A DNA stretch of 64,000 bases, from positions 31,753 through 95,752 of the IMG/VR virus record IMGVR_UViG_3300029309_000006; one strand, given 5' to 3'. This stretch comes from a virus. Numbering within the stretch: the first letter of the stretch is position 1; each line of letters opens with the position of its first letter. Position numbers and translations under genes: made by a program. Shown piece after piece: positions 356 to 56,751 of the stretch. The notes beneath the pieces are model-generated. The model did no database searches. It was given only the letters and a program-made list of their open reading frames with translations, and was not told the DNA's origin.

Positions 356-2770
356 ATGGCAAATTTATCTAATATTAATGATTTATTTGAGGTTGAAAGT
401 ACTGGTGCTATTAAATTCAGTAATCAATCAGGTACTTCTGGGCAAGTATTAAAATCAAATGGTAATGCAGCTCCAACGTGGGTAAATGCTTCAACTGTTA
501 TAGGTGGACCATATTTACCTTTAACAGGTGGTACGCTTACAGGTAATTTAGCAATAAACGGTTCTAATAGTTTAACAGTTGGTGGAGCTTTATCAGGAAG
601 CACTGCAACCTTTTCAGGTAACGTAGGAATTGGAGTTGCTGCTCATGGTACCGCTTCTTTAAATATTACAAACGCCAATCAACATATACGATTAAATAAT
701 GGCTCAGAACTTGGAGTTATATCTCTTTTATCAACTGGTGAATTAGATATTTGGGGACATGGCACTAATGAAACAATTAATTTTAGAACTGGAACTGGAA
801 GTGGTACTGTTGCTTTAGATATAACTGGAGTTAACTCAACTTTTGCAGGAAACGTAGGAATAGGTCGTTCTCCAGTGGCTTATGGTTCTTTTAAGGTTTT
901 AAATTTAGCAGGTTCTTCAGGTGCAATACAAAAATTAATACACACAGGAAATACTGTTGAATTACAATCTTTTGCATCAGCTTCAGTTGGCGCTATTGGT
1001 ACAGCGACAAATCATTCTTTATTGTTAACAACAGGTGACGTAACTGCTTTAACCATAGATACACATCAACAGATTTCATTAAACGGAGTAGGTGGAAGTG
1101 ATGGATTCACTGTGCCTTTTTACAATGACCCAGGCTACAGTAATATGACAGCAGGTGGGTTTGGCATATTGTTTAGAAATAATTATGATTCTTATGTAAC
1201 CAATAATGCTTATTATGTTGCCGATCCTGGTGGACAATGGAGATCAAAATACACCACTAGAGCTGCAAGTGTTTTATCAATGCTAGATGGTAAATTTGGC
1301 TTTTCTACCGCAGCTGCAAATACAACTTCTCCTTATGGGCTTGCTTTTAGTGAGGTCATGACTATTTTACAAAACGGAAACGTAGGAATTGGAACTACTA
1401 ACCCTATATTATATAGTAGTGGGTGGGGAAAAGCTTTGGGAATAAAAGCAGCAAGCGGATATGCCGTAATACAAGTTGCTGGTAGTAATGGAAATGGAGG
1501 AGAGGTAGACTTAGGAGATGCTTCTATACGTCACGCTGCTATTGCTTCTTTAACTGGCTCTAAATTGGCATTTTATACTAACGGTTCAAATTCTGGGTCT
1601 ACTGTCTTACAAAGAATGACTATTGACGGTTCTGGAAAAGTAGGAATCGGAACGGCTTCGCCTGTGGCTAAATTTCATGTATCAGGTGATACTGGCGGTA
1701 CTGATTCAATAGCAAGATTTCAAAACACAAATTCAGCTAAAGTTACAAAAATACAATTATTAGATAGTTCAGGTACTGTAGGAGATGCTCTTATAGCGTA
1801 CGATCATTCAAATGCAAGTTCAGGTTTACATTATTTAGGAATGGGTGTTAATAATATCACAACTTTAGTTATAAACAATAATGACAATGTAGGAATCGGG
1901 ACGACTTCACCTAATAAAAAATTAACAGTATATGGCGGTAATGATAATGGTATATGGATAGATAGTCAAGGTGCTCAATATACTTCATTAGCTTTTGGTA
2001 ACAATGGAACTGAAAAAGCTAATATAGCGTGGGATAATACCAATGGATATACTAATATAAGCACTTATTCAAATGGTCATTTAGCTATGTCTACAGGTGG
2101 TTCAATAAATGCATTTCTTAACTCTAGTGGTAATTTTGGAATAGGGCTTACAATTCCTAGTGCTAAATTACATGTTCAAGGAAAAGTAAAAATTAATAGT
2201 GCTACAGCACCTGCAGGTAATGCAGAATTAAACATAGGCTACGTAGGTGGCGGAGAAACTAGGTCAATAGATATACATGGTGGCTGGACTGGAAATGAAA
2301 GTAAATCAATAACTTTTACACACGGTACTTCGCTTGCTGACATAGTTGGTCAAATTAATGTTCAACATACTAGTCCAGGTTCTAGAATAAGATGGGGAAA
2401 ATTATTCCATAGTGGTAATTCTAGCACTTATACAATGACATTGACATCAACATCAACAACAACAGCAGATCTAACTGTCGCGGGCAATATAACTGCTTCA
2501 GCCGATGTAGTAGCTTATTCTGATAAACGATTAAAATCAAATATAAAAACACTTGACGGGTCAAAAGTATTAAAAATGCGTGGTGTGTCATTTGATAAAG
2601 AAGGCCAAAAAGGTAGTGGGGTTATAGCTCAAGAGTTAGAAAAAATTGCACCTGAGTTAGTAAATAATGATAATGAATATAAAGGAGTTGCATATGGTAA
2701 TTTAACTGGTTATCTTATTGAAGCTATAAAAGAATTAGAAGCTAGAGTAAAAGAATTAGAAAACAAATAA
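356..2770 (+). CDS. Tail fibre protein with GNVGIGT repeats and C-terminal S74 chaperone
   Basis: Gly/Ser/Thr-rich, repeated GNVGIG(T) motifs, C-terminal SDKRLKSNI...GVIAQELE...Y. Confidence 0.88.
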   Translation: MANLSNINDLFEVESTGAIKFSNQSGTSGQVLKSNGNAAPTWVNASTVIGGPYLPLTGGTLTGNLAINGSNSLTVGGALSGSTATFSGNVGIGVAAHGTASLNITNANQHIRLNNGSELGVISLLSTGELDIWGHGTNETINFRTGTGSGTVALDITGVNSTFAGNVGIGRSPVAYGSFKVLNLAGSSGAIQKLIHTGNTVELQSFASASVGAIGTATNHSLLLTTGDVTALTIDTHQQISLNGVGGSDGFTVPFYNDPGYSNMTAGGFGILFRNNYDSYVTNNAYYVADPGGQWRSKYTTRAASVLSMLDGKFGFSTAAANTTSPYGLAFSEVMTILQNGNVGIGTTNPILYSSGWGKALGIKAASGYAVIQVAGSNGNGGEVDLGDASIRHAAIASLTGSKLAFYTNGSNSGSTVLQRMTIDGSGKVGIGTASPVAKFHVSGDTGGTDSIARFQNTNSAKVTKIQLLDSSGTVGDALIAYDHSNASSGLHYLGMGVNNITTLVINNNDNVGIGTTSPNKKLTVYGGNDNGIWIDSQGAQYTSLAFGNNGTEKANIAWDNTNGYTNISTYSNGHLAMSTGGSINAFLNSSGNFGIGLTIPSAKLHVQGKVKINSATAPAGNAELNIGYVGGGETRSIDIHGGWTGNESKSITFTHGTSLADIVGQINVQHTSPGSRIRWGKLFHSGNSSTYTMTLTSTSTTTADLTVAGNITASADVVAYSDKRLKSNIKTLDGSKVLKMRGVSFDKEGQKGSGVIAQELEKIAPELVNNDNEYKGVAYGNLTGYLIEAIKELEARVKELENK

Positions 2771-2771
2771 T

Positions 2772-5096
2772 ATGGCATTATTACATGAAATAAATAACGG
2801 ATCAGAAAGATTTTCAGTAGACGAAGTAGGAGCAGTAAAAATAAACAATGCTTTTACTTTACCCACTGTAGCAGGTGTAAATGGTTATGTGTTAACATCA
2901 AATGGTTCTGGTGCTTCTGCTTGGCAAGCATCTACAGGAGGAGTTGGTGGCGCTGGTACTGGTCAAAAAGTAGCAAAGTTTGCTGGAACAGGTACTTCAT
3001 CTACTCTAGGAGATGGCCCAATAACTTTTTCAACTAATGATTCAGCTTTTGCAGGTGCAATAGCAACATCTGGTAATATAACAGCTACTGCATCGAACGC
3101 TACAATTTCAGCTGCTGAAAGCGGTGGTGCTACAACAAAAATAATGGGTGCTAGTGTGGGTAGAGTTGGTACATCTAGTAATCATAACCTTGAAATTTTA
3201 TCAAATAACACAGCAGCAATAACCATAGACACTTCACAAAACGCAACTTTTGCAGGGAATATTTCAACAACAGGTGATATAAATATTAACGGGGGAACGA
3301 GTTACAATGATAAAAGTAATCTTTATCTGTCTAATGGTAGGACTTTAATACAATCTGATATTGTAAATGCAACCGCTAACGGTGACACAAGTTTAGATTT
3401 TCAAACAAGAAGCGCAGGTTCATTAGCTTCAGCTATGTTTATTGATGAATTTAGAAAAATAGGAATCGGAACTACTTCGCCTGATTGGGCTTTAGATATT
3501 GAAGCTGTAAGCACTGGAGTTCAATTGCAAATAGGTAGAACTACTACTAGTGCAGGCTCTACTTGGATGGGTTCTGATTCAAATGGCTTTCATTTAGGCG
3601 TTGGGGCGTATGGTGGTGGAAACTCTGTTTCTGATCCTAATGGTTTTACTGTAGATACTTCTGGAAACGTTGGAATTAAAACAACTCCTAGTACTAGGCT
3701 ACATGTGTCTGGAAGTTTTGATCCTGATGATGCACTGGGATATGCTTTAATCGAAAACACTAGTACAGCTGGCGCATCTGCTGAAAACTCAGCTATTAAT
3801 GTTAAAAATTATCGTGGCACTTCTCAATTTATGCAGTGGGAAGGAAATGGATTAAGGATTGGTAGTAGAATTTTAACTAATAGCGGCGTAGGTGATGTTT
3901 ATTTTACAGCTGGAGCAGATAGTGTTAAAATGGTTGTAAAAGCTGGCGGAAACGTAGGAATCGGAACCACAAACCCTAATTTTAAACTTCACTTAGCAAG
4001 TACTGGTGCTGATACTCTTTTACGACTTGAAAATACTACTACTAATAGATACCCTAATCTAAGATTCACAGCGGCAGGTGCAGAATATGACATAGGTGTT
4101 GGAGGTACTGGAACAGCAACAGGGTATGTACATAATTTTTATATTTACGACATAACTAATTCTGCGCCTCGTATTACTTTAACTCAAGCAGGAAACGTAG
4201 GAATAGGAACAACTGTGCCTAACGCTAGGTTAGAAGTTTTAACCTCTACTGCAGGGTTTAGCAGTATTATTAGAAACACAAACGCAAATAATGACTCTAA
4301 TGGGTTATTAGTTAAAGCTGGTACTCAAGGTACTGAATATGCTCTTAAAGTTAGTAACACTAATGATACTCAAAACTTTATGTCTATAAAAGGAAGTGGA
4401 AACGTAGGAATTGGAACAACTTCACCTTCTTCTACTTTTCAAATTGGTGGTGGAACTGCTAATGTTTTACAAAAAATACATGGTAGTGGAACAGCTGGTA
4501 TTCAAATATTTACAAATTCACCCTCTACTGGTACTAAAATAGCCTCTTTAGAACAATATTTTTCAAACGAAGGGTTTTTAGGGTTGTATTATAATGGTAG
4601 TCAAACAGTTAGATTTAGAGCAAATGGCAAATCTTTTATTAATGGAGGGTTTGTAGGAATCGGAACAACAAATCCTTATTATGAGTTAGAAGTTCAAGGG
4701 CAAGGATATTTTAGCTCACATTTATATGCACACTGTTTAGGTGTTGGAGCAGCTACACCAAATTCTTTAGGAGTTATCAGAGCAGCTGGAGATGTTATTG
4801 CATATTATTCATCAGACAAAAGGTTAAAAGATAATATTGTAAAAATAGAAAAGCCTTTAGAAAAGCTTGATAAAATTAACGGATATGAGTTTGATTGGAA
4901 TAACAAACAAGAGCTTTATAAAGGACATGACATAGGAGTTGTTGCTCAAGAAGTAGAACAAGTATATCCAGAACTAGTAGAGACTCGCAAAAGTGGATAT
5001 AAAGCTGTTAAATATGAAAAATTAGTACCTTTACTTGTAGAAAGTATAAAAGAATTAAAAACTGAAATAGAACAACTTAAAAAACAAATTAAATAA
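2772..5096 (+). CDS. Tail fibre protein with GNVGIGT repeats and C-terminal S74 chaperone
   Basis: Same architecture: SSDKRLKDNI...GYEFDW...GVVAQEVEQVYPELV. Confidence 0.88.
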   Translation: MALLHEINNGSERFSVDEVGAVKINNAFTLPTVAGVNGYVLTSNGSGASAWQASTGGVGGAGTGQKVAKFAGTGTSSTLGDGPITFSTNDSAFAGAIATSGNITATASNATISAAESGGATTKIMGASVGRVGTSSNHNLEILSNNTAAITIDTSQNATFAGNISTTGDININGGTSYNDKSNLYLSNGRTLIQSDIVNATANGDTSLDFQTRSAGSLASAMFIDEFRKIGIGTTSPDWALDIEAVSTGVQLQIGRTTTSAGSTWMGSDSNGFHLGVGAYGGGNSVSDPNGFTVDTSGNVGIKTTPSTRLHVSGSFDPDDALGYALIENTSTAGASAENSAINVKNYRGTSQFMQWEGNGLRIGSRILTNSGVGDVYFTAGADSVKMVVKAGGNVGIGTTNPNFKLHLASTGADTLLRLENTTTNRYPNLRFTAAGAEYDIGVGGTGTATGYVHNFYIYDITNSAPRITLTQAGNVGIGTTVPNARLEVLTSTAGFSSIIRNTNANNDSNGLLVKAGTQGTEYALKVSNTNDTQNFMSIKGSGNVGIGTTSPSSTFQIGGGTANVLQKIHGSGTAGIQIFTNSPSTGTKIASLEQYFSNEGFLGLYYNGSQTVRFRANGKSFINGGFVGIGTTNPYYELEVQGQGYFSSHLYAHCLGVGAATPNSLGVIRAAGDVIAYYSSDKRLKDNIVKIEKPLEKLDKINGYEFDWNNKQELYKGHDIGVVAQEVEQVYPELVETRKSGYKAVKYEKLVPLLVESIKELKTEIEQLKKQIK

Positions 5097-34069: not shown

Positions 34070-37000
34070 ATGAGTTGCGAAGAACTAAAACAGATATACG
34101 GTGAAAATTCTACACAATACAGACAGTGTATTAATAACACCGAGGCTTTAAAAAATGCTGAGTTTACAGAAGAAGAACAAGGAATTTTAGACAACTATAA
34201 TGCTATATCTTTATCTGATGAAGATCAACAGGATATAATAGATGATTTAAAAAAATCAAAAGAAAAAATATTTAAAGAAGCTAGATATTATAAGCCTTTT
34301 GGCATTCCTTCAAGAGGTTATCAACCTTCTCTTAAGTCAAGAAGTGAATCACAATTAAAAAAGTTTTTTGAAAGCTCTGACTTAACTTATGAAGATTATT
34401 TAAAGTATCAAGACGACGGAACAATACCTAATCCTACAGAAGAAGATATATTAAAAGAGCAAAATATAAGAATAGAAAACAAACAAAGAGATTTTCTTGA
34501 AAATGTAGATAATAGTTCTAGAGAGATTATTTCACAAAAACAAAAAGCCCAACAAAAAATATTTGAAGAACAACAGTTAAAATTAGAAAAAGAAAAAAAT
34601 AATATAGCTGATGTAGATGAAAAAGGAAAATTAGTAGGTGGTGAAGTTTTTGAAATAGACAAAAAACTAAAAAACATGCAAGGCTTTATTGGTAATCAGT
34701 TTGATTCAAATAAAGTAGAGCCTACTGCTGTTTTTTATGAAAATTTTAATTCGTTAGTTAAACAAAGAAATGTTTTAGTTAATGAATATGAAAAAATAAG
34801 TAATAAACAAATACTAGATTTAGACGAAAACGCTTCAGCTAAACAAGCTATAGACGTTTGGCAAAGAAGCTACTCAAATGCTGACCAACTTATTCAAGCT
34901 GGGAAAGAAGCATTAAACAATATAAAGTTAGCCGGTATTGAGCTTGGAGAACTAATAACTCAAGCGTATAGAGGTGTGCCTGGCATAGTTGAATATTCTA
35001 CTAGATCAATAAACCCTGACGCTAAAAGTAGTAGTGGTGCTGTTAACTGGCTTAGAAGTCAACGAAACCAAACATTAGATACAGCAGAATATCTAAACAA
35101 TATAAGAGAAACAAAGCTGCCTAAAACTATAAAACTTGAAAATATAAATAATACAGATGATTTTATAAACTATAGTTTAGACGCTGTAATGAATAATATT
35201 CCAAATAGTGCTATGGCTTTTGCTGGGCCTGGTGTTGCTACAGCTTGGTTTACTTTATCAGGATTAGGAGATAAATCTAGTGATTTTGGTTTAGAAGAAA
35301 GAAAAATACAAACATTAAAAGAAAAAATACAAAAAGAATCTGATCCTTTTGAAAAAATGTATTTAGAAAAAGAATTAGAAGCTTATAATGATGCTATTAA
35401 CACTAATCAAATAACAAAGTTTTTAGCAGCGGTTGTTCATGGCGCGGCAGAGTCTATACCTGCTAGGATGTTTGGTACTATTAAAATAGCACAAGGAATT
35501 AAAGATGTATATAGGTATATTCCAAAACAACAGTTTAAAAAAGCTGGATTTGCGGTTGCTAATGCTTTTGGCAAAACACCTGTTTTAGAATCTGTAGAAG
35601 AAGGTTTTACTAACACGCTTCAAAATCTTAACGACATATATGTATTGAACAAAGATATAAGTATATTTGACAATTTAGATGAGTCTATGGTTCAAGGTCT
35701 TATAATAGGTAACGGTTTTTCTTTAATGCAGTCAGCTCCTAATGTTTACGGAGCTTTATTAAACGTAGCACAAACAAGACAAAACAAAAAAGAAATAAGA
35801 GCTAAAGTAAATGAATTAAATACTATTTTAGAAGATTACCAAACTGTTACAAGTCCTGATGGAAGAAAAGAATTAAGACTACAAGGTAATAGATTAGTTA
35901 AAGAAATAGTTTCCGATACAAATATAACATTGGAAAAGTTAACTAAACTAGATTATAACCAGTTAATTACTTTAGGAAATCTTGATAGACAATTAAGAGC
36001 TATAAACAAACAATATATAAAAGCTGTAAACTCTGGAATAAGTGATTCTTCTTTAAAAATAATAAAAAATAATTTAAAGACTGAGTTTGATAATATACAA
36101 AATCAAAAAGCTGAAATACTAGGTAAACAAACTAGAACAGATCAAAAACTTGAAAACTTAGACTATGCTTCTTCTCTAGTAAAAGGTAAACAAATATTAG
36201 GAGAAAATTTAGTTATAATAGATGATAATACTGATATAGATAAATTAGGTATAACTAAAGAACAAGCCGACTCACCAGGTTTTGTAAACGAAATAGATGG
36301 TAAAGTATATATTAATGAAAAAATAGCTTTAGACGAAGGAGGTAATATAAATGTTATTGCTCATGAAATATTACACAAGGTTTTAACAGACTATGTGTCA
36401 ACTGATCAAGGTGAGCAAGCAATAATAGATTTTTACAACAATTTAGATGAAGAAACTAAAGCTGCAATAGACAATGAATTAAAGTCTAGAGACTATATTG
36501 ATGAAAACACTCAAGACGTAATACAAGGATTAAAAAGTAAAAACGTTAGAATTGATGAAATACTAACTCAATATTTAGATTTAGTAGAAAATACAGACAA
36601 CAATATAGATATTAATGAAGGAACTTTAAGTAAAATTAAAGATTTTATAGCAAAATTTTTACAAGATTTAGGTTTCAAAGGTAAATTTTCTACTGCCGGT
36701 GACGTAAAAAGATTTTTAGTTGATTATAGAAAAAAATTTAAAAGTGGCGATTTACAAGTAAAAGGTAACAAAAGCGGTGAAGCTTTTTCAAGATCTGTTA
36801 AAAAAGGTGATATAAACACCCTAGCAACAGACATGGCAAGTAAAGGTTATGATAATTTAACTCAAGCTGAACAAACAAGTTTAAAAAATCAATACACAAG
36901 TGTTGCGTTAGCAGCTATTAAATTTGATGCGGGTAAAGGTACTGTAAACACACAAGATGCACAATCATTTGTAGATTCACAATTTGCTACAATAGCAAGA

Positions 37001-40000
37001 AACTACAGGCCTAGAGATCCTAGAACAAATAAAAAGCAAGATTTTACAACATACATATATAACACCGTAGGTAGAAGAGGTGCAGATTTATATGGTAAAC
37101 AAGAAGCTTTAGCTGAAGCAGGCCAAACTACAAGCTTAGATGATGAAAGAGCTAGACAAATTGCTGATCCTGGTTTAGATACAGAAACAACAAGTAAACA
37201 AGATGTTACGCCAACAATCGAAGTATTTGATTTTATAAAAAAATCAGATCCAAGTTTTGATAGTAAAAAGTTTGAAAAAGATTTTACGGATGGTGTGAAC
37301 GCTTTAGCTGCAGAAAAAAATATTGATTTATCTAATCCAGATTTAACACCTAAACAACGGATGGATGTTGTACCTTATAAAGTTTTAGCAGACGCAATAG
37401 GTATACCTGTAAATAAAATTACTAATCCTAAAGCTAATTTAAGCACTGCTGAAGCTAGGAAAGCTCAAAAAATATTATCAGCTGCAAAACCTTTTATTAA
37501 AAATGTGGTTTTAACAAAAGCTAATACAGACGTAACAAGTGTAGAATCAAAAACAAAAAGAGGTAAATCTGTAAAAATAGGTGGAGAAACATTAGGTTTA
37601 GGAACAAAAATATTAAATACATTTTTTAATCCACCTAAAAGATTAGGTAGTGGTAAAAAAGTTAGAACGCCTAAGCAGTTCGACAACAAATTGTTTAATG
37701 AAGCAATTGGTATAAAAAATGGCAAAGTAAGTCCTGATTTTAACGTTAGAAACTCTCAAATAATAAAAGGTTTATTAAAAGCTGTTGCTGAACAAATGAG
37801 CGGTAGAGCAACTAGTAGAACATTAGACGCTGGTCCTCAAGCTCAAGAAGTAAAACTTACTCAAGCACAATTAGACTCTATGAAAAGTCCATTAGTGTTT
37901 AGTAAAGCTCGATCAAATATAAAAACTAAAATACCTAAGTTTAAAAAAGATGCTGAAGGTAAAAAACAATATAAAGATTTTTTACAACAAAAGTTGTTTC
38001 CATTATTTCCAAAAAGCTTTTTCTTACAAGGAGGAGATAGTGCGTTGCAATTTTTAGAAAGTAAAGGACAATATTTTAGCAAAACAGAAATTGATAATAT
38101 TATAAAAGAACAAGGTAATAATTTTGGTAAACCTTTTCCTAAAGGCGTAAATCTTAAATATATTAATAAAAGATATAATCAAGTATTTCCACAAGGTTGG
38201 GATTCAATGGTAGAAATGCATAATTCAGGTGAATTAGCAAAAATGAATGATAGTAATGCTTTGTTAGGTAAGGCAATGTGGGATAGAATTTACAAATCAA
38301 TTAGAAACGCGGTTAATTCTGGTGATCAAAATTTTTTACAAGGATTACAAACTTATATGGCTGGTGTTGGAAGTATAGACAACCACCCATTAAAAATGAT
38401 AGCTCCAGTAGTAGGTGGAACATTTGGTTATCAAAAAGGAAAAGAAAACGTAACGTACGAACACGCTAGACCAGCGAGTGATACATATAATTTATTAATA
38501 AACGCAGCAATAGGTTATAAAAGTAAACAAAGTTTTGATAAAGTCTATGCTGAAGCAATTAAAAATTATAAAGTTATAGCTTTAGCGGAAGTTGATGGAG
38601 CTAAAGTTGATAAATTTTATAAAACAAAAATGCCTGATGGAGTTACTGAGTGGTTTAGAAGATATGCTAATCCAAAAGTAGCTACTGAAAATGGAGGTAT
38701 AGATGTAAATAATTTATATTTATTTAGTCAAGGTAAAGTTTTTTCTGATGCTTTTGGAATTGATTCTGCTGGTAAACCCTTAACTAATGAGGGTAAAGTA
38801 ATAGCTAAAGCTGCAACAAAAAAATATCAAACATTAGATAACGGAATAGTATTTTCTAAAAGTGTAAAAGGTAAAAAGGCTATAGAAAAAAGAAAACAAA
38901 ATGAACCTAAAGATTTAAGCAAAGACTTTAATAGTATAATACAAGAAAATAAAGGTATAAAAGCTGAAGCGGTATATTCTGAAATAGTAGCAAGAAGACA
39001 AGGTAGAGACAAAGGCAGATTTAAGTTTTTCTTACCACCAGGTGCTGAAGATTTTAAAGGATTAATATATACATTTTTAGGTAAAGGTAAAAAAGGTGAA
39101 AAACAATTTGAGTTTTTTGATAATAATTTAATTAAACCTTATTTACAAGGAGTTTCTCAAATAGAAACATTTAGAAGAACTTTAAAAGCTGATTATACAG
39201 CTTTGCTTAAACTAAGCCCAGAAGCTGCAGGAAAATTAAACACTAAAATAGCTAATACAGAATATAGCTTTGACCAAGCTGTTAGAGCTTATTTAATGAA
39301 TGAGTCAGGTTATAATTTAAAAGAGGCAGGTTTATCAGCAAGAGATGCTAAACTGTTGATAGATGCTATTAAAAACGATCCTACAATGGTTTCTTTTGCT
39401 CAAGGGCTGCAGCTAATAACAAAACAAGACACTTGGTTGTCGCCTAACGGAGGTTTTGACGTACAAACTATACAATCAGATCTACATCGTTTAACACAAG
39501 GTGCAGGTAGAAAAAAGTTTTTTGAAAACTCAGGCTTTATACCTAACTCTGAACAGATATTTAATAGAGATAATTTAAATAAAGTAGAAGCAGCTTACGG
39601 TTATAATGTAAAAGAAGCTATACAAGATATATTGTATCGTATGAAAAATGGTACAAACAGACCTTCTGGTTCTAGCAGGTTAACAAACTCTTTTAACAAC
39701 TGGGTAAATAGATCTATTGGAGCAATAATGTTTTTTAACAGAAAATCTGCATTATTACAAACAATATCAAGTATAAACTTTATAAACTGGAGTGACAACA
39801 ACCCTTTAAAAGCTGCTATAGCTTTTGGTAATCAGCCTCAATATTGGAAAGACTTTGCTACAATTTTTAATTCTGATAAATTAAAAGAAAGAAGAGCTGG
39901 TTTAAAAGGTGATATAAATGAAGCTGAGCTTGCTAGTGCTGTTAAAAATGCTACAAACAAAGCAGAAGCAGCACTATCTTGGTTGCTTAAAAAAGGTTTT

Positions 40001-41203
40001 TTACCAACACAAATGGCTGACAGTTTTGCTATAGCATCAGGTGGAGCTACTTTTTATAGAAACAGAATAAACACTTATAAAAAACAAGGGTTATCAGATG
40101 TTGAAGCAGAGAAAAAAGCTTTTGAAGATTTTTCAAGAATATCAGAAGAATCTCAGCAATCAGCAGATCCTTCAATGATTTCACCTCAACAAGCAAGTCC
40201 ACTTGGTAGATTAATATTAGCTTTTCAAAACACTCCAATGCAGTATACTAGACTTATGAAGCGTGCTGCGCAAGATTTAATAGCTGGAAGAGGTGATGCA
40301 AAAACCCATATAAGTAAAATAATTTATTATGGAGCTGTACAAAACTTTATGTTCTCTGCTTTACAAAATGCTTTATTTGCTTTAATACCAGGTTTTTCAG
40401 AAGAAAATCCAGAAGAAGAAGAAACAGATAAAGAAAAAGCAGCTCAAATAAAAAACGTAAGAATAATAAATAATATGGTTGACACTATATTAAGAGGTTC
40501 TGGGGTTTATGGAGCAATAGCGGCTACAGCAAAAAATACTATAGTTAAATATTATCAAAACGAACAAAAAGATCCTTTTGCAAAAGACAATGCTGATATA
40601 ATAATTGAAGCTATAAACTTGTCTCCTCCTATAGGTTCTAAAGTTAGAAAATTAAACAACGCTTTAAGAGCTAAAGAATTTGAAAAAGATGTAATAGAAG
40701 AAAGGGGATGGGAAATAACTAGAGATGGTAGAGTTAATTTAAGTCCTTCATATAGAGTTATAGGTTCTGCAGCAGAGGCTTTGCTTAACATACCTTTAGA
40801 AAGAACTATAGCAGAAATAGATGCTTTGACAGAAGTTACAGATTCAAGAAATAGTAATATGCAAAGAATAGCTTTAGCTTTAGGTTGGAGAACTTGGGAT
40901 CTTGGTGTAAGAAACGAAGAGTCAGATCAAATAAAACTTGAAGCAAAAGAAAGAAGAAAAACTGAAAGAGCAGAAGAAACAAAAAGAAAAAGAGAAGAAA
41001 AGAAAAGATTAGAAGAAGAAAAAAAGTTTGAAGGTTTATCTGATGCTCAAATAAATGCTTTAAAAAGAAGAGATCAAATAGAAAAGCTAACTAAAGCTCA
41101 GCAAGTTGATAGTTTAATAAAACTAGGTTTAAGCAAAAAAGATATTAGAGCTTTGCGTTTAGAAGAAGATAGAATAAATAAAATAATCGAACTTAACAAA
41201 TAA
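34070..41203 (+). CDS. Large polyvalent virion cargo protein (zincin peptidase + sigma-like + HNH-like + helical C-terminus)
   Basis: HEILH at aa 765; FS[RK] linkers at aa 906, 1277, 1595; last large gene of the tail operon; no DxDGD/DFDID RNAP motif seen. Confidence 0.65.
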   Translation: MSCEELKQIYGENSTQYRQCINNTEALKNAEFTEEEQGILDNYNAISLSDEDQQDIIDDLKKSKEKIFKEARYYKPFGIPSRGYQPSLKSRSESQLKKFFESSDLTYEDYLKYQDDGTIPNPTEEDILKEQNIRIENKQRDFLENVDNSSREIISQKQKAQQKIFEEQQLKLEKEKNNIADVDEKGKLVGGEVFEIDKKLKNMQGFIGNQFDSNKVEPTAVFYENFNSLVKQRNVLVNEYEKISNKQILDLDENASAKQAIDVWQRSYSNADQLIQAGKEALNNIKLAGIELGELITQAYRGVPGIVEYSTRSINPDAKSSSGAVNWLRSQRNQTLDTAEYLNNIRETKLPKTIKLENINNTDDFINYSLDAVMNNIPNSAMAFAGPGVATAWFTLSGLGDKSSDFGLEERKIQTLKEKIQKESDPFEKMYLEKELEAYNDAINTNQITKFLAAVVHGAAESIPARMFGTIKIAQGIKDVYRYIPKQQFKKAGFAVANAFGKTPVLESVEEGFTNTLQNLNDIYVLNKDISIFDNLDESMVQGLIIGNGFSLMQSAPNVYGALLNVAQTRQNKKEIRAKVNELNTILEDYQTVTSPDGRKELRLQGNRLVKEIVSDTNITLEKLTKLDYNQLITLGNLDRQLRAINKQYIKAVNSGISDSSLKIIKNNLKTEFDNIQNQKAEILGKQTRTDQKLENLDYASSLVKGKQILGENLVIIDDNTDIDKLGITKEQADSPGFVNEIDGKVYINEKIALDEGGNINVIAHEILHKVLTDYVSTDQGEQAIIDFYNNLDEETKAAIDNELKSRDYIDENTQDVIQGLKSKNVRIDEILTQYLDLVENTDNNIDINEGTLSKIKDFIAKFLQDLGFKGKFSTAGDVKRFLVDYRKKFKSGDLQVKGNKSGEAFSRSVKKGDINTLATDMASKGYDNLTQAEQTSLKNQYTSVALAAIKFDAGKGTVNTQDAQSFVDSQFATIARNYRPRDPRTNKKQDFTTYIYNTVGRRGADLYGKQEALAEAGQTTSLDDERARQIADPGLDTETTSKQDVTPTIEVFDFIKKSDPSFDSKKFEKDFTDGVNALAAEKNIDLSNPDLTPKQRMDVVPYKVLADAIGIPVNKITNPKANLSTAEARKAQKILSAAKPFIKNVVLTKANTDVTSVESKTKRGKSVKIGGETLGLGTKILNTFFNPPKRLGSGKKVRTPKQFDNKLFNEAIGIKNGKVSPDFNVRNSQIIKGLLKAVAEQMSGRATSRTLDAGPQAQEVKLTQAQLDSMKSPLVFSKARSNIKTKIPKFKKDAEGKKQYKDFLQQKLFPLFPKSFFLQGGDSALQFLESKGQYFSKTEIDNIIKEQGNNFGKPFPKGVNLKYINKRYNQVFPQGWDSMVEMHNSGELAKMNDSNALLGKAMWDRIYKSIRNAVNSGDQNFLQGLQTYMAGVGSIDNHPLKMIAPVVGGTFGYQKGKENVTYEHARPASDTYNLLINAAIGYKSKQSFDKVYAEAIKNYKVIALAEVDGAKVDKFYKTKMPDGVTEWFRRYANPKVATENGGIDVNNLYLFSQGKVFSDAFGIDSAGKPLTNEGKVIAKAATKKYQTLDNGIVFSKSVKGKKAIEKRKQNEPKDLSKDFNSIIQENKGIKAEAVYSEIVARRQGRDKGRFKFFLPPGAEDFKGLIYTFLGKGKKGEKQFEFFDNNLIKPYLQGVSQIETFRRTLKADYTALLKLSPEAAGKLNTKIANTEYSFDQAVRAYLMNESGYNLKEAGLSARDAKLLIDAIKNDPTMVSFAQGLQLITKQDTWLSPNGGFDVQTIQSDLHRLTQGAGRKKFFENSGFIPNSEQIFNRDNLNKVEAAYGYNVKEAIQDILYRMKNGTNRPSGSSRLTNSFNNWVNRSIGAIMFFNRKSALLQTISSINFINWSDNNPLKAAIAFGNQPQYWKDFATIFNSDKLKERRAGLKGDINEAELASAVKNATNKAEAALSWLLKKGFLPTQMADSFAIASGGATFYRNRINTYKKQGLSDVEAEKKAFEDFSRISEESQQSADPSMISPQQASPLGRLILAFQNTPMQYTRLMKRAAQDLIAGRGDAKTHISKIIYYGAVQNFMFSALQNALFALIPGFSEENPEEEETDKEKAAQIKNVRIINNMVDTILRGSGVYGAIAATAKNTIVKYYQNEQKDPFAKDNADIIIEAINLSPPIGSKVRKLNNALRAKEFEKDVIEERGWEITRDGRVNLSPSYRVIGSAAEALLNIPLERTIAEIDALTEVTDSRNSNMQRIALALGWRTWDLGVRNEESDQIKLEAKERRKTERAEETKRKREEKKRLEEEKKFEGLSDAQINALKRRDQIEKLTKAQQVDSLIKLGLSKKDIRALRLEEDRINKIIELNK

Positions 41204-52170: not shown

Positions 52171-52932
52171 CTACAGATAGTCAAGCACTTGCGAGTGATC
52201 AACACTATCAATTAGTTTATCTACAGCTTGTTTTTTAAGCTCTGAAACACGTACATAAGCACTGCTTCCCTCTATGTTTAAGATTTCTGCTATTCTGTTT
52301 GCTGAATGTTTTTCACAGTCTAAACCATAGCTTAATCTTAAAACTTGATATTCTCGTTCATTAAGATGTTTCTTTAATAAACCAGTTAAATAAATATTTA
52401 ATAACGCAATATTATATGGCTCAGATTTATCTGCTATTTGATATATCATATTCTCTTCATCATCATTGTTTTTAGGTTTATCATCAATAGATAAAAACAT
52501 ACTATTAAAAAACATTGCAACCATCTTTTGATCTTTACCATTGTTCTTACGTATTTCGTTTAGCTTATGCTCTGGTATTCTCATATCACCTCTATTAATA
52601 TCAATACCTCTTCTAATACCTCCTTTAATTCGTTTTGATAAGAAAGATTTTAATGTTTTTTCTTTGTCGTCTGAGTTGTTTAATTTAATCCAATCAATTC
52701 GATCTATAGCTTTAACAAGACTTAAATTACCTTCTTGCATTAAATCCATTATAGACATAACGCCTGAAGCCTGTTGACTTGTTGAAAATTTTCTAGCTAT
52801 ATTTTCTACTAAAGGCAAAAACTTATAAGTAAGCTCTTTGTTACTATACTCTGCTAAAGGTTTTTCCTTAGGTTGATTAGCTATTACGTCATTTTTATAA
52901 CGTACATAGTTTTTAATATTATATTTCTTCAT
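52171..52932 (-). CDS. Phage sigma70-family factor
   Basis: Region 2 LVENIARKF...DLMQEGNLSLVKAIDR; MRIP; region 4 LNEREYQVLRLSYGL...IAEILNI. Confidence 0.88.
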   Translation of the reverse strand: MKKYNIKNYVRYKNDVIANQPKEKPLAEYSNKELTYKFLPLVENIARKFSTSQQASGVMSIMDLMQEGNLSLVKAIDRIDWIKLNNSDDKEKTLKSFLSKRIKGGIRRGIDINRGDMRIPEHKLNEIRKNNGKDQKMVAMFFNSMFLSIDDKPKNNDDEENMIYQIADKSEPYNIALLNIYLTGLLKKHLNEREYQVLRLSYGLDCEKHSANRIAEILNIEGSSAYVRVSELKKQAVDKLIDSVDHSQVLDYL

Positions 52933-53554
52933 TTAATATTTGTTTTTCTTGTTTTAAAGCGTCGCACATATGTCTATGTATAGTTCTTGTAGAGCAATTA
53001 AGCAAGCTAGCAATTGATTTAATTGTTATTTTTTTGTTATAATAATTTAAGTCAATCATAGCATTATATATGTCTGATTTACCCATGCTAGATCTTCCTA
53101 TTAGCTTACCTACAATACTTAGTTTTTCATTTAAGCTTAATCCACAATATGGTTTAAATACTACTTTACGTAGCTTGTTTGCAGGTGGGTCACCACCTTG
53201 ATTAAACACATCTTCTATCATATCATTTAATGTTTTTTGTTGTATAAAGAAAGTTACAAAACCATTTTCTTTATTTGCTATAAACTTAAAAACACTTCTC
53301 ATGTCATCTTTTATTGAAACATAATCATACTCAACACCATCCCTGTTTAAATAATATAAAACAAGCATGTGCCACTTTAAAGATTTATATGTAGTTATCT
53401 TAGCTTTGCTATTAAACAAATGATAACATTGATACGTACCTTTTTCGTAGTATTTGTATTGTTCTGTTTCAACAGTAGGTTTGTCAGTGTCTGGGTCTTG
53501 CCTGTACACAACTCGCCTGTCGTTTAACCATTTTATATTTCTTTCATATGACAT
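52919..53554 (-). CDS. C-terminal HTH protein, candidate replication initiator or regulator
   Basis: KITIKSIASLLNCSTRTIHRHM HTH; start codon overlapped by a 43-bp inverted repeat. Confidence 0.55.
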   Translation of the reverse strand: MSYERNIKWLNDRRVVYRQDPDTDKPTVETEQYKYYEKGTYQCYHLFNSKAKITTYKSLKWHMLVLYYLNRDGVEYDYVSIKDDMRSVFKFIANKENGFVTFFIQQKTLNDMIEDVFNQGGDPPANKLRKVVFKPYCGLSLNEKLSIVGKLIGRSSMGKSDIYNAMIDLNYYNKKITIKSIASLLNCSTRTIHRHMCDALKQEKQILNEEI

Positions 53555-55430: not shown

Positions 55431-55582
55431 AAATATTCATTTAGTTTTTTAGGATTTTGTAAGAAGTATTTAATTTCCCATTGTTTATCTTCTAGCTCTT
55501 CAATCCTAACTAATAATTCTTTAAGTGTATAAGACTCACCATCTCTGTGAGATTTAACTTTTATTTCATTTATATTATCCAT
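55427..55582 (-). CDS. Small hypothetical protein (51 aa; not in ORF track)
   Basis: MDNINEIKVKSHRDGESYTLKELL...; ATGA overlap with next gene. Confidence 0.5.
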   Translation of the reverse strand: MDNINEIKVKSHRDGESYTLKELLVRIEELEDKQWEIKYFLQNPKKLNEYL

Positions 55583-55604
55583 TTGTTATCGTATTTAGTC
55601 TGTA
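55573..55604 (-). promoter_or_regulatory. Early-promoter-like motif, copy 1
   Basis: TACAGAC-NN-AATAC-N11-GATAATA on - strand. Confidence 0.7.
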
Positions 55605-56071
55605 TAACTTTGTGTACTTCTTAAACCGCTATATTCACATCTAGTTTCACCTTTAGCAAAATCAGTATAATCCATATCATCTTTATATCTTTGAATTACT
55701 TTATAAGGTTCTAATACAAATACATTTCTATTTCTGTAATTATCCCAACAGCTAATCCATATATCAGGTTTACCTGTCCATATAATATAAGCATAATCAT
55801 GTTCAATATTTTTTATATTTGAATATAAGTAGCAACTGTCATAGTACATATCACGCACTAACTTTGCTGCCAATGCACTACCATCTTGTCTAGCATTAAC
55901 TTTACACCAGTTTGCTAACTGTACACCTTGCCACTGTGGATAACCATCATGATGTAAATACATATTTACATAGCTTTTGTCACTTACACATCTGGGTTCT
56001 GCAGCAAAACCTAACTGGTTTTTTTCTGCATATTTTCGGTCTACGACCATTGTTATGTTTCTTGTTGCCAT
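55595..56071 (-). CDS. Conserved early phage protein
   Basis: MATR...MYLHHDGYP...G pattern. Confidence 0.7.
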   Translation of the reverse strand: MATRNITMVVDRKYAEKNQLGFAAEPRCVSDKSYVNMYLHHDGYPQWQGVQLANWCKVNARQDGSALAAKLVRDMYYDSCYLYSNIKNIEHDYAYIIWTGKPDIWISCWDNYRNRNVFVLEPYKVIQRYKDDMDYTDFAKGETRCEYSGLRSTQSYTD

Positions 56072-56072
56072 T

Positions 56073-56303
56073 TTAAAAATATTTAGTAAATCCGTTATCT
56101 GTCTCTATCAGTTTAGCTATGTAATTCCATATCTTTAATTCTTTTTTAGCTCTATCAAGAACACCTTGATGTTGTTCTATTGTTATGAAAGGCGACAGTG
56201 TGCCTGTTTTTAATTCTTGCTTTAATCTGCTAATGTCATTATTGCACGACATTATATTAGCAAAAGCTTTATCGTGTGCGCTGTTTTTTATTTCTGTTTC
56301 CAT
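56073..56303 (-). CDS. Hypothetical early protein
   Basis: Packed - strand ORF. Confidence 0.6.
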   Translation of the reverse strand: METEIKNSAHDKAFANIMSCNNDISRLKQELKTGTLSPFITIEQHQGVLDRAKKELKIWNYIAKLIETDNGFTKYF

Positions 56304-56304
56304 A

Positions 56305-56562
56305 TTAATCTATTAAATAAGCATTACCGTATAGTACTTCACTAGCTGACATATTGTTTATATGATGCGCACCGCCTGGCCATGTGCTTATATTACAATA
56401 AATGTTAACTTTTTGAACATCATCTACTTTAAGATCAGACCATGAAGTTTTAGACATAAGAGTATATTTAAGTCTTTTAGCACTTGAATAATCTTTAGCA
56501 GATTTGTTTAATATTTTTTTAAGTTCTGGCTTTAGCCTTTCGTAAACTGTTTTTATTTTCAT
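56305..56562 (-). CDS. Hypothetical early protein
   Basis: ATG 6 nt downstream of the motif GATAAT. Confidence 0.65.
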   Translation of the reverse strand: MKIKTVYERLKPELKKILNKSAKDYSSAKRLKYTLMSKTSWSDLKVDDVQKVNIYCNISTWPGGAHHINNMSASEVLYGNAYLID

Positions 56563-56567
56563 ATTAT

Positions 56568-56599
56568 TATTATCTTATAATTATTGTATTAAGTCTGTA
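56568..56599 (-). promoter_or_regulatory. Early-promoter-like motif, copy 2
   Basis: TACAGAC-TT-AATAC-N11-GATAATA. Confidence 0.75.
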
Positions 56600-56604
56600 A
56601 TTAG

Positions 56605-56747
56605 TGGACGTGGCAGGAATCGAACCTGCGTCCAAGTTAGTGTGACGCAATATGTAATACACTTCCGTACGCTCGCTTATATCCGTCGATAGTCGGCACC
56701 ACATACATATATTGTCTCCTATTTCTTGTCTACCCTATTTCACGCCC
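56605..56747 (-). ncRNA. Miniature tmRNA-like RNA (tRNA-like domain with short insert)
   Basis: Acceptor stem GGGCGTG/CACGTCC with G3.U70 and discriminator A; T-arm GCAGG-TTCGATT-CCTGC preceded by GGAC; stemless D-loop ending GAC; 143 nt. Confidence 0.8.
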
Positions 56748-56751
56748 TTAT

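What the first reader, a model, noticed from the sequence alone, without database searches (positions are those of the whole stretch)
34070..41203. Giant virion cargo protein looks like a self-cleaving polyprotein that delivers a sigma-factor-like module
Seen in sequence: a zincin motif HEILH (aa 765, nt 36362) with a downstream Glu (RIDEIL), followed by three similar linkers AFSRS (aa 906, nt 36785), VFSKA (aa 1277, nt 37898) and VFSKS (aa 1595, nt 38852). The segment between linkers 1 and 2 contains IARNYRPRDP...DFTTYIYNTVGRRGADLY...SLDD, resembling sigma70 region 2.3-2.4 (YDP...F.TY...I), and LTPKQR...YKVLADAIGIPVNKI, resembling an ECF region 4 HTH. Established knowledge: polyvalent phage proteins carry zincin peptidases proposed to release effector domains, and crAss-like phages inject an RNAP encoded near this position; no RNAP motif is seen here. 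Inference: this phage may inject a proteolytically released sigma-like factor that redirects host core RNAP to early phage promoters.
Basis: partly seen in the sequence, partly recalled or inferred. Interest (0 to 1): 0.92.

Follow-up and report, generated by a model that had tools for sequence, protein, structure and literature searches.

The report
Giant phage protein with sigma-like module
The last structural gene of this uncultured marine phage encodes a 2,377-residue modular protein that combines a zinc-protease-like domain with a domain folded like the core-binding part of bacterial sigma factors, so the phage may bring its own transcription-redirecting factor into the cell, though neither cleavage nor RNA polymerase binding has been shown.

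Summary
The protein belongs to a family of more than 1,500 metagenomic giant proteins. The family has no match in 50,697 deposited phage genomes, Pfam or PHROGs. Relatives share a C-terminal core of about 780 aa and swap the modules upstream.

- **Zinc-protease-like module (aa 686-905).** H765, E766, H769 and E830 are invariant in 47 divergent relatives. The predicted fold resembles zincins, but only weakly.
- **Sequence-level sigma similarity.** It is collinear but not significant, and no Sigma70 Pfam model matches inside the protein. The proposed region-4 helix-turn-helix is unconfirmed.
- **The "FS" linkers.** They lie at the points where homology between relatives breaks. The second site closes the sigma-like module in 58 of 91 distinct relatives. 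It co-occurs with the HExxH motif (52 of 69 against 0 of 12).

Cleavage, virion packaging and RNA polymerase binding remain untested. The phage also encodes an ordinary sigma factor and six unusual promoter-like repeats at the head of its minus-strand arm. Its nearest relatives infect Flavobacteriia and are not crAss-like.

The parts
34070..41203 (+). Whole ORF, 2377 aa (P0001). It is the last gene of the + strand structural block.
   Evidence: The neighbours upstream are terminase, portal and virion structural proteins. Small lysis-like ORFs follow.
34070..36124 (+). N-terminal region, aa 1-685. It is variable among relatives. Residues 298-668 are weakly similar to Cellulophaga phage phi18:3 gp123, which that record annotates as a virion protein found by MS/MS.
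   Evidence: Coverage profile. Pairwise BLAST gives 21% identity, E 2.6e-4. Record annotation.
36125..36781 (+). Zincin-like metallopeptidase (MPTase) module, aa 686-904. HEILH is at 36362-36376 and E830 at 36557-36559.
36782..36796 (+). Junction 1, AFSRS (aa 905-909), in a low-confidence linker.
   Evidence: pLDDT is below 50 at model residues 214-222. Conservation is poor: 9 of 41 relatives have [FY]S here, and P0003 and P0005 have LSK.
36785..37114 (+). Sigma-domain-2-like helical domain, aa 906-1015.
37115..37219 (+). Acidic, disordered linker, aa 1016-1050. It holds the conserved TSLDDERARQIAD stretch.
   Evidence: pLDDT is below 50 at model residues 109-142. Net charge is -5. It aligns with the SIDD...QIAD stretch of the phage's own sigma in a non-significant hhalign.
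37220..37894 (+). Basic alpha/beta domain ('domain 2'), aa 1051-1275. It contains the LTPKQR...YKVLADAIGIPVNKI helices.
37895..37909 (+). Junction 2, VFSKA (aa 1276-1280). It is the conserved end of the sigma-like module.
   Evidence: 58 of 91 distinct junctions end in FS and 69 of 91 in [FYLMW]S. The sequence after FS is unrelated between relatives. It co-occurs with HExxH, 52 of 69 against 0 of 12.
37910..38848 (+). Module 3, aa 1281-1593, function unknown. It has an invariant Glu-His pair (E1464-H1465, nt 38459-38464).
   Evidence: E1464 is invariant and H1465 is kept in 17 of 18 diverse relatives. The ESM Atlas gave only unnamed viral clusters.
38849..38863 (+). Junction 3, VFSKS (aa 1594-1598), just before the conserved core.
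   Evidence: BLAST alignment starts cluster at aa 1570-1610. About half of 96 distinct boundaries have [FY]S. In others A-L takes its place.
38864..40939 (+). Conserved C-terminal core, aa 1599-2290. It is the defining part of the family.
   Evidence: It is covered by 115-118 of 119 relatives. More than 100 columns are invariant. There is no match in Pfam, PHROGs, PDB or the phage records. The Atlas points to clusters carrying LPD38 or LPD39, as a lead only.
40940..41203 (+). Charged Lys/Glu-rich C-terminal tail, aa 2291-2377, and the stop codon.
   Evidence: Read from the translation. It holds 27 K+R and 20 D+E in 87 aa.

Best explanation
The gene encodes a 'polyvalent'-type giant internal virion protein of an uncultured marine podophage. 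The host is probably a member of the Flavobacteriia.

**Modules, in order**
- A variable N-terminal part.
- A zincin-like metallopeptidase domain.
- A sigma-like module. It consists of a sigma-domain-2-like helical domain, an acidic disordered linker and a basic alpha/beta domain.
- A module of unknown function with an invariant Glu-His pair.
- A conserved C-terminal core.

**Proposed mechanism**
1. The protein is packaged in the capsid and enters the cell with the DNA.
2. The peptidase domain cuts at the Phe-Ser junctions that end the modules. Junction 2 is the best candidate.
3. The freed, or still tethered, sigma-like module engages host core RNA polymerase through its sigma-2-like domain.
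4. This starts or biases transcription of the first phage genes. The six tripartite promoter-like repeats at the head of the minus-strand arm are plausible targets.
5. This happens before the phage's own ordinary sigma factor (52171-52932, -) has been made.

**Shown here**
- The modular architecture.
- The invariant zinc-site residues.
- The sigma-2-like predicted fold.
- The junction motif and its co-occurrence with HExxH.

**Inferred**
- Virion packaging, which rests on synteny and a weak match to a virion protein verified by mass spectrometry.
- Cleavage.
- Binding to RNA polymerase.
- Promoter specificity.
For: **Context**
- The gene closes a terminase-portal-capsid-virion block.
- Elemovirus, MW202828.1 and phi18:3 each have a giant last structural gene in the same position. 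The phi18:3 product is annotated from MS/MS as a virion protein.

**Modularity**
- More than 1,540 relatives were found.
- Homology breakpoints fall at aa ~900, ~1280 and ~1600.
- Some relatives carry kinase and HAD-like modules instead.

**Peptidase module**
- H765, E766, H769 and E830 are invariant.
- HExxH occurs once in 109 of 142 relatives, against 0.41 expected in total.
- The top Foldseek rows are minigluzincins and lethal factor.

**Sigma-like module**
- Model pLDDT is 79 overall and about 90 in the domains.
- About 25 of the top 30 VIA rows are sigma domain 2, covering 77-112 residues.
- Sigma factors recur in the Foldseek PDB and BFVD lists, with probability up to 0.82.
- A sub-threshold profile hit to SigB residues 6-90 falls in the same register.
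- hhalign against true sigmas is collinear.

**Junctions**
- FS ends the module in 58 of 91 distinct junctions, with unrelated sequence after it.
- FS is present in 52 of 69 relatives with HExxH and in 0 of 12 without it.

**Sigma-based transcription in this phage**
- It has a canonical sigma gene.
- It has six non-canonical promoter-like repeats, against 0.01 expected by chance.
Against: **Sigma similarity**
- It is structural only.
- No Sigma70_r2 or r4 Pfam hit lies inside the protein or in 18 diverse relatives.
- A phmmer search over 1.84 billion representatives found no true sigma.
- hhalign gives P = 0.07-0.09.

**Domain 2**
- It has no recognisable sigma-4 match.

**Zincin fold**
- The scores are low, and they are mixed with death-fold helical bundles.

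**Junctions**
- Junctions 1 and 3 are only partly conserved.
- The 12 relatives that lack HExxH form only about 6 clusters, so the co-occurrence is not made of independent events.

**Precedent and alternatives**
- The N4 virion polymerase carries such a peptidase domain and is packaged uncut (PMC5512222).
- The phage has its own sigma gene, so an injected one is not strictly needed.
Confidence: 0.4

Rival explanations
1. The sigma-2-like domain does bind host RNA polymerase, but not as a promoter-specificity factor. It could block the site where host sigma docks, shutting off host transcription. Or, as part of the uncut ejected protein, it could tether polymerase to the entering DNA end so that transcription helps pull the genome in.
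For: The fold evidence is the same as for the main explanation. No sigma-4-like DNA-reading domain was recognised. The phage already has a complete sigma of its own for promoter choice. The N4 precedent shows that a peptidase-bearing giant protein can stay uncut (PMC5512222).
Against: The domain is followed by a conserved acidic linker and a strongly basic domain (+16) with HTH-like helices. That layout is the one expected of a DNA-reading factor. The conserved junction at the module's end suggests release.
Confidence: 0.2
2. The resemblance to sigma is a coincidence of helical packing. The protein is a structural ejection or internal-core protein whose modules have other roles, or none, in host takeover. 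The FS dipeptides are ordinary domain ends and are never cut. The HExxH domain acts on host or cell-wall proteins, or only serves in packaging.
Against: About 25 of the top 30 matches among 48,161 representative chains belong to one small family and cover the whole domain. An independent search of viral models also returns phage sigma factors. The order of region-2-like, 3.2-like and HTH-like stretches is collinear with true sigmas. FS at junction 2 tracks the presence of HExxH.
Confidence: 0.3
3. The gene is a divergent virion RNA polymerase of the crAss or N4 kind.
For: Its position and size match those of virion polymerase genes in other podophages.
Against: There is no D-x-D-x-D motif anywhere. 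No PDB, Pfam or PHROG match to any polymerase was found. The nearest cultured relatives are not crAss-like.
Confidence: 0.02

Closest known systems
Phage 'polyvalent proteins' with zincin-like MPTase domains (Iyer et al. 2017, PMC5512222)
   Same: It is a giant multi-domain protein encoded among virion genes of a terminase-portal phage. It has one HExxH...E peptidase-like domain as the common element and swappable effector-like modules. Some relatives carry kinase or HAD modules. Processing by the peptidase is proposed in that paper, not shown.
   Different: No Pfam model of that collection, MPTase-PolyVal or LPD, scores here. A sigma-like domain is not among the domains listed there: the word 'sigma' occurs 0 times in the paper. 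A conserved Phe-Ser junction motif is not described there either.
Bacterial and phage sigma-70-family factors, including minimal phage forms such as T4 gp55
   Same: The predicted fold of aa 906-1015 matches sigma domain 2. The order of domain 2, acidic linker and helix-rich basic domain is collinear with sigma regions 2, 3.2 and 4.
   Different: No significant sequence similarity was found. No recognisable region 4 is present. The module is embedded in a 2377-aa structural-block protein instead of being a free early or middle gene product. The same phage has a separate, ordinary sigma.
Virion-delivered RNA polymerases of N4-like and crAss-like phages
   Same: The logic would be the same: a giant protein in the capsid that starts early transcription on entry. 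In N4 the protein also carries an MPTase domain (PMC5512222).
   Different: No polymerase catalytic motif or fold is present. If the reading holds, this protein would borrow the host enzyme rather than bring its own.
Syntenic giant proteins of Elemovirus (NC_055853.1 gp18, 3694 aa), MW202828.1 (3860 aa) and Cellulophaga phage phi18:3 gp123 (1935 aa)
   Same: Each is the last gene of the structural block. The first two share the HExxH module (profile E 4e-10 and 1e-7). phi18:3 gp123 shares weak N-terminal similarity and is annotated from MS/MS as a virion protein.
   Different: They lack the sigma-like module, domain 2 and the C-terminal core.

Membership tests
Sigma-70 family | Domain 2 fold (regions 1.2-2.4 helical domain) | tested here: met
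Sigma-70 family | Sequence match to Sigma70_r2 (PF04542) | tested here: not met
   There is no hit in P0001 or in 18 diverse relatives. A six-frame search of the genome at E <= 10 finds the model only in the separate 253-aa sigma gene and in a unit-A ORF. hhalign against true sigmas gives P 0.07-0.09.
Sigma-70 family | Region 4 helix-turn-helix (PF04545) that reads the -35 element and binds the beta flap | tested here: not met
Sigma-70 family | Binding to core RNA polymerase and promoter-specific initiation | not testable with these tools
   This needs pull-down and in vitro transcription with a Flavobacteriia core enzyme.
Zincin-like metallopeptidase (polyvalent-protein MPTase) | HExxH on a helix plus a downstream Glu on the following helices | tested here: met
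   H765, E766, H769 and E830 are 100% conserved in 47 representatives below 60% identity. In the model HExxH lies in helix 77-91 and E830 (model residue 145) starts helix 145-155.
Zincin-like metallopeptidase (polyvalent-protein MPTase) | Zincin fold (helix, three-stranded sheet, two catalytic helices) | tested here: inconclusive
Zincin-like metallopeptidase (polyvalent-protein MPTase) | Match to a curated peptidase family model | tested here: not met
   No Pfam peptidase family scores at E <= 1. One relative has a weak DUF885 hit, E 0.0017.
Zincin-like metallopeptidase (polyvalent-protein MPTase) | Proteolytic activity or self-processing | not testable with these tools
   The only evidence is indirect. 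The FS junction co-occurs with HExxH, 52 of 69 against 0 of 12.
Phage polyvalent proteins | Several unrelated domains in one giant chain, encoded with virion genes of a terminase-portal phage, with variable domain content among relatives | tested here: met
crAss-like or N4-like virion RNA polymerase | Catalytic Asp motif and a polymerase fold | tested here: not met
   There is no D-x-D-x-D. No PDB sequence hit was found. No Pfam or PHROG hit was found.

The most novel reading that the evidence does not exclude
An abundant, uncultured group of marine phages packs a sigma-factor-like protein into the capsid as one module of a giant polyprotein. The polyprotein's own zinc peptidase releases the module at a Phe-Ser junction. 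The injected module then reprograms host core RNA polymerase to the phage's unusual early promoters. This would be a third route to immediate-early transcription, beside use of the host holoenzyme and injection of a complete viral polymerase.
Probability: 0.25. Interest if true: 0.9.

Novelty: new variant of a known kind. Interest (0 to 1): 0.72.

Why it matters
Phages are known to start transcription in two ways. They use the host holoenzyme, or they inject a whole polymerase, as N4, crAss-like and phiKZ-like phages do.

A capsid-borne sigma-like factor would be a cheaper third way. In the papers I could search I found no description of a sigma-like domain in a virion or polyvalent protein.

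The family is large, with more than 1,500 clusters, many of them from marine metagenomes. It is absent from 50,697 deposited phage genomes, so it marks an unstudied phage lineage.

The conserved Phe-Ser junction tied to the HExxH domain gives a concrete, testable cleavage site. Processing by the peptidase has long been proposed for polyvalent proteins, but I found no demonstration of it in the papers read here.

Tried and rejected
- **Database searches with no match.** Pfam and PHROGs on the whole protein gave nothing usable. phmmer and two profile searches against PDB sequences gave nothing significant. tblastn of the whole protein, the core and the HExxH module against 50,697 phage records gave no match.
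- **Fetching related loci.** The search for related loci for the sigma-like module returned only 2 loci per scan. I therefore built the alignments from full-length protein ids.
- **Complex prediction.** The sigma-2-like domain was folded with residues 1-400 of Flavobacterium johnsoniae beta-prime. The tool returned no verdict (score 0.00, controls not run), which is no evidence either way.
- **Profile comparison with the phage's own sigma.** hhalign of the module against that family alone gave nothing. Against six E. coli sigmas plus that family it was collinear but with P 0.07-0.09.
- **Extended junction motif.** The motif G[KRT]-x(2-5)-FS is absent from P0001, and its two copies in MW202828.1 are an internal repeat, so I dropped it.
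- **Membrane insertion.** No 19-residue window reaches Kyte-Doolittle 1.2, so I found no support for membrane-spanning segments.
- **ESM Atlas.** It gave unnamed viral clusters for module 3. For the core it gave LPD38 and LPD39 as leads only. The LPD38 model found nothing in the genome, and it found nothing in the control genomes either.
- **Split genes at the junctions.** The short hits P0122 and P0123 look like frameshifted fragments, not free-standing modules.
- **crAss-like polymerase reading.** Rejected for lack of any motif or hit.
Full report
**1. The observation**

The window holds one uninterrupted ORF at 34070-41203 on the + strand, 2377 codons long.
- HEILH at residue 765.
- RIDEIL at 827, which puts the Glu at 830.
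- AFSRS at 905, VFSKA at 1276 and VFSKS at 1594.
- The two stretches compared with sigma regions 2 and 4, at 975-1025 and 1092-1117.

From the protein's own composition one expects 0.002 HExxH, 0.04 matches to [AVILM]FS[RK][AS] and 1.0 FS[RK]. The protein has 1, 3 and 5.

**2. Genomic setting**

*Position in the genome.*
- Upstream lie the large terminase, the portal, a capsid-type structural protein and further virion proteins.
- Downstream lie four small ORFs, one with a weak spanin match. A minus-strand arm follows with ribonucleotide reductase and primase-helicase.
- The gene is therefore the last of the structural block.

*Nearest deposited relatives, by terminase and capsid protein.*
- The metagenomic podophage MW202828.1.
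- 68 Elemovirus phages of a Baltic Flavobacterium.
- Cellulophaga phages Calle_2, phi18:3 and phi46:3 (Pachyviridae).

These are not crAss-like phages.

*The same position in those relatives.*
- Each also ends its structural block with a giant gene: 3860, 3694 and 1935 aa.
- The phi18:3 product is annotated in its record as a virion protein found by MS/MS.
- It is weakly similar to residues 298-668 of our protein (21% identity, pairwise E 2.6e-4).

Virion packaging of our protein is an inference from this synteny and this weak match. It is not shown.

**3. The family**
- A word-indexed search found more than 1,540 proteins of 1,300-4,100 aa. All come from metagenomes, many of them marine.
- None of the 50,697 deposited phage genomes holds a detectable relative of the whole protein, its core or its HExxH module.
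- Pfam and PHROGs recognise nothing.
- BLAST coverage shows that 115-118 of 119 relatives share residues ~1600-2300, while upstream parts are shared by only 2-63.
- Alignment ends and starts pile up at residues 890-910, 1270-1290 and 1570-1610. These are the three FS sites.
- Some relatives carry a P-loop kinase (PF13671/PF06414) and a HAD-like DFDDTLA module in place of our module 3.

This modular behaviour is what Iyer et al. described for phage 'polyvalent proteins' (PMC5512222).

**4. The peptidase-like module**
- A profile built from residues 686-905 finds the module in 81 of the retrieved proteins. All 78 hits that cover the site keep HExxH.
- In 47 representatives below 60% identity, H765, E766, H769 and E830 are invariant.
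- Counting any HExxH upstream of the core, 109 of 142 full-length relatives have exactly one, against 0.41 expected in total. The other 33 have none.
- This module is also the only part with homology to the syntenic giants of Elemovirus and MW202828.1 (profile E 4e-10 and 1e-7).
- AlphaFold2 with a 36-row alignment gives pLDDT 84 and pTM 0.79. The model has three short strands, then the HExxH helix, with E830 at the start of a later helix.
- Foldseek puts minigluzincins (selecase, abylysin), anthrax lethal factor and PPEP-1 on top, but at E 0.4-2.

The zinc-site signature is therefore firmly conserved. The fold evidence agrees with a zincin but is weak.

**5. The sigma-like module**

*Sequence searches.*
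- A phmmer search of residues 906-1277 over 1.84 billion representatives found 63 proteins. All are giant proteins or fragments of them, and none is a true sigma.

*The predicted structure.*
- AlphaFold2 with a 28-row alignment gives pLDDT 79.
- The model has a helical domain at model residues 5-108, which is aa 906-1015.
- A disordered acidic linker follows at model residues 109-142.
- A basic alpha/beta domain follows at model residues 145-350.
- The tails at both FS sites are disordered.

*Structural matches to the first domain.*
- VIA-align against 48,161 PDB representatives returns, for the first domain, a list made almost wholly of sigma domain 2.
- About 25 of the top 30 rows are of this kind.
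- Foldseek against PDB and against viral models also returns sigma factors repeatedly, at non-significant E values and probability up to 0.82. Several alignments span whole small phage sigmas.

*Sequence-level evidence is sub-threshold throughout.*
- A profile search hits SigB residues 6-90 at E 0.41, in the expected register.
- hhalign against an alignment of six E. coli sigmas plus the phage's own sigma family is collinear. Region 2 aligns with residues 975-1000, SIDD...QIAD with SLDD...QIAD, and the HTH with YKVLADAIGIPVN. The P value is only 0.07-0.09.
- No Sigma70_r2 or r4 model matches inside the protein.

*The second domain.*
- The proposed region-4 identity is unconfirmed.

**6. The junctions**

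*Site 2 is the clearest.*
- In 91 distinct relatives that have domain 2, the domain ends in a conserved ...G-K-x-x-x-hydrophobic-F-S.
- 58 of the 91 have FS and 69 have [FYLMW]S.
- The residues after FS belong to unrelated modules.

*Link to HExxH.*
- FS at this site occurs in 52 of 69 relatives with an HExxH and in 0 of 12 without one (Fisher 7e-7).
- Those 12 form only about six sequence clusters, so the events are few.

*Sites 3 and 1.*
- Site 3, before the core, has [FY]S in about half of 96 distinct boundaries. In many others A-L stands in its place.
- Site 1 is poorly kept: 9 of 41 relatives have it, and close relatives have LSK.

*The wider pattern.*
- FS[EKR] is enriched 2.2-fold upstream of the core across 57 low-redundancy relatives, and control tripeptides are not enriched.
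- The surrounding context is weak.
- Many zincins prefer a large hydrophobic residue just after the cut. This is my own knowledge and was not tested here. If it applies, cleavage would fall just before the Phe.

Whether any site is cut is unknown. The N4 virion polymerase has such a domain and is packaged uncut (PMC5512222).

**7. Other parts**
- Module 3 (aa 1281-1593) has an invariant E1464. H1465 is kept in 17 of 18 diverse relatives, and further conserved residues follow. It has no known relative.
- The core (aa 1599-2290) has more than 100 invariant columns. Its only lead is from the ESM Atlas, to clusters carrying LPD38 or LPD39. I could not confirm that lead.
- There is no D-x-D-x-D motif and no polymerase match.

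**8. Transcription context**

*The phage's own sigma.*
- The same phage encodes an ordinary 253-aa sigma-70-family protein at 52171-52932 (-). Both Pfam models score above their cut-offs.
- This protein is extremely common in marine metagenomes.

*The promoter-like repeats.*
- At the head of the minus-strand arm lie six copies of TATTATC-N9-TNGTATT-NN-GTYTGTA, read here on the + strand. They occur nowhere else in the window, against 0.01 expected by chance.
- As I count it, 21 nt separate the TTTACA-like and GATAAT-like elements in the copy at 58975-59006. That is too far for a usual sigma-70 promoter.

*The resulting picture.*
- Early promoters would be read with the help of an incoming factor. 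The phage sigma would then take over.
- No step of this is demonstrated.

**9. Verdict**
The protein is a polyvalent-type giant protein with a conserved zincin-like site and a domain predicted to fold like sigma domain 2. Its modules are bounded by Phe-Ser junctions that track the peptidase.
- A sigma-like domain in such a protein is not described in the literature I could search. I rate the finding as a new variant of a known kind.
- Cleavage, packaging, polymerase binding and promoter choice all need experiments.
- I give the full mechanism a probability of about 0.4. I give the strongest form, a released and injected promoter-specificity factor, about 0.25.

Noticed in passing
window 52171-52932 (-): This is a canonical 253-aa sigma-70-family gene (P0181). 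PF04542 scores 27.7 bits and PF04545 scores 24.8 bits. It has more than 8,000 metagenomic relatives, and the top 120 are 80-100% identical. One source names one of them as coming from a Pelagibacterales MAG. Contig lengths shared between the two hit lists suggest that it sits on the same contigs as relatives of the giant protein.
   Followed up: partly
window 55573-59006: Six copies of TATTATC-N9-TNGTATT-NN-GTYTGTA lie here on the + strand and nowhere else in the window (0.01 expected by chance). Read on the minus strand, the GATAATA element is followed almost at once by ATG in several copies. That could mean leaderless early transcripts.
   Followed up: partly
G000:C1:1-32000 (L010, L011), upstream of the window: The 95,752-bp contig carries a second set of phage genes: another large terminase (L010:12662-13828), another portal (L011:8743-10482) and a protease-like gene (L011:3944-5566). 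Tail-fibre-like genes with similar C-termini lie at the contig start, at 29-32 kb and at window 356-5096. This could be two phages joined in assembly or a composite genome. Relatives of the window's phage are about 60 kb.
   Followed up: no
window 37910-38848 (aa 1281-1593): This module has an invariant E1464. H1465 is kept in 17 of 18 diverse relatives, and P1468, Y1500, P1522 and R1531 are conserved across them. It looks like an enzyme active site of an undescribed family.
   Followed up: partly
relatives P0084, P0111, P0113, P0120: Some family members carry a HAD-like phosphatase motif (DFDDTLA) and a P-loop kinase (PF13671/PF06414) between KFS[EKR] junctions. This combination recalls polynucleotide kinase-phosphatase repair enzymes.
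   Followed up: no
window 52919-53554 (-): The 211-aa ORF next to the sigma gene gives a weak Sigma70_r4 match (15.6 bits, E 0.0013). It may be a second HTH regulator.
   Followed up: no
L002:142-11721 (-), the MW202828.1 giant protein: It contains two HExxH motifs (aa 1615 and 2500). It also has an internal repeat of the form GK-x-x-G-x-x-FSETP-x-x-x-QQWL at aa 971 and 1919.
   Followed up: no
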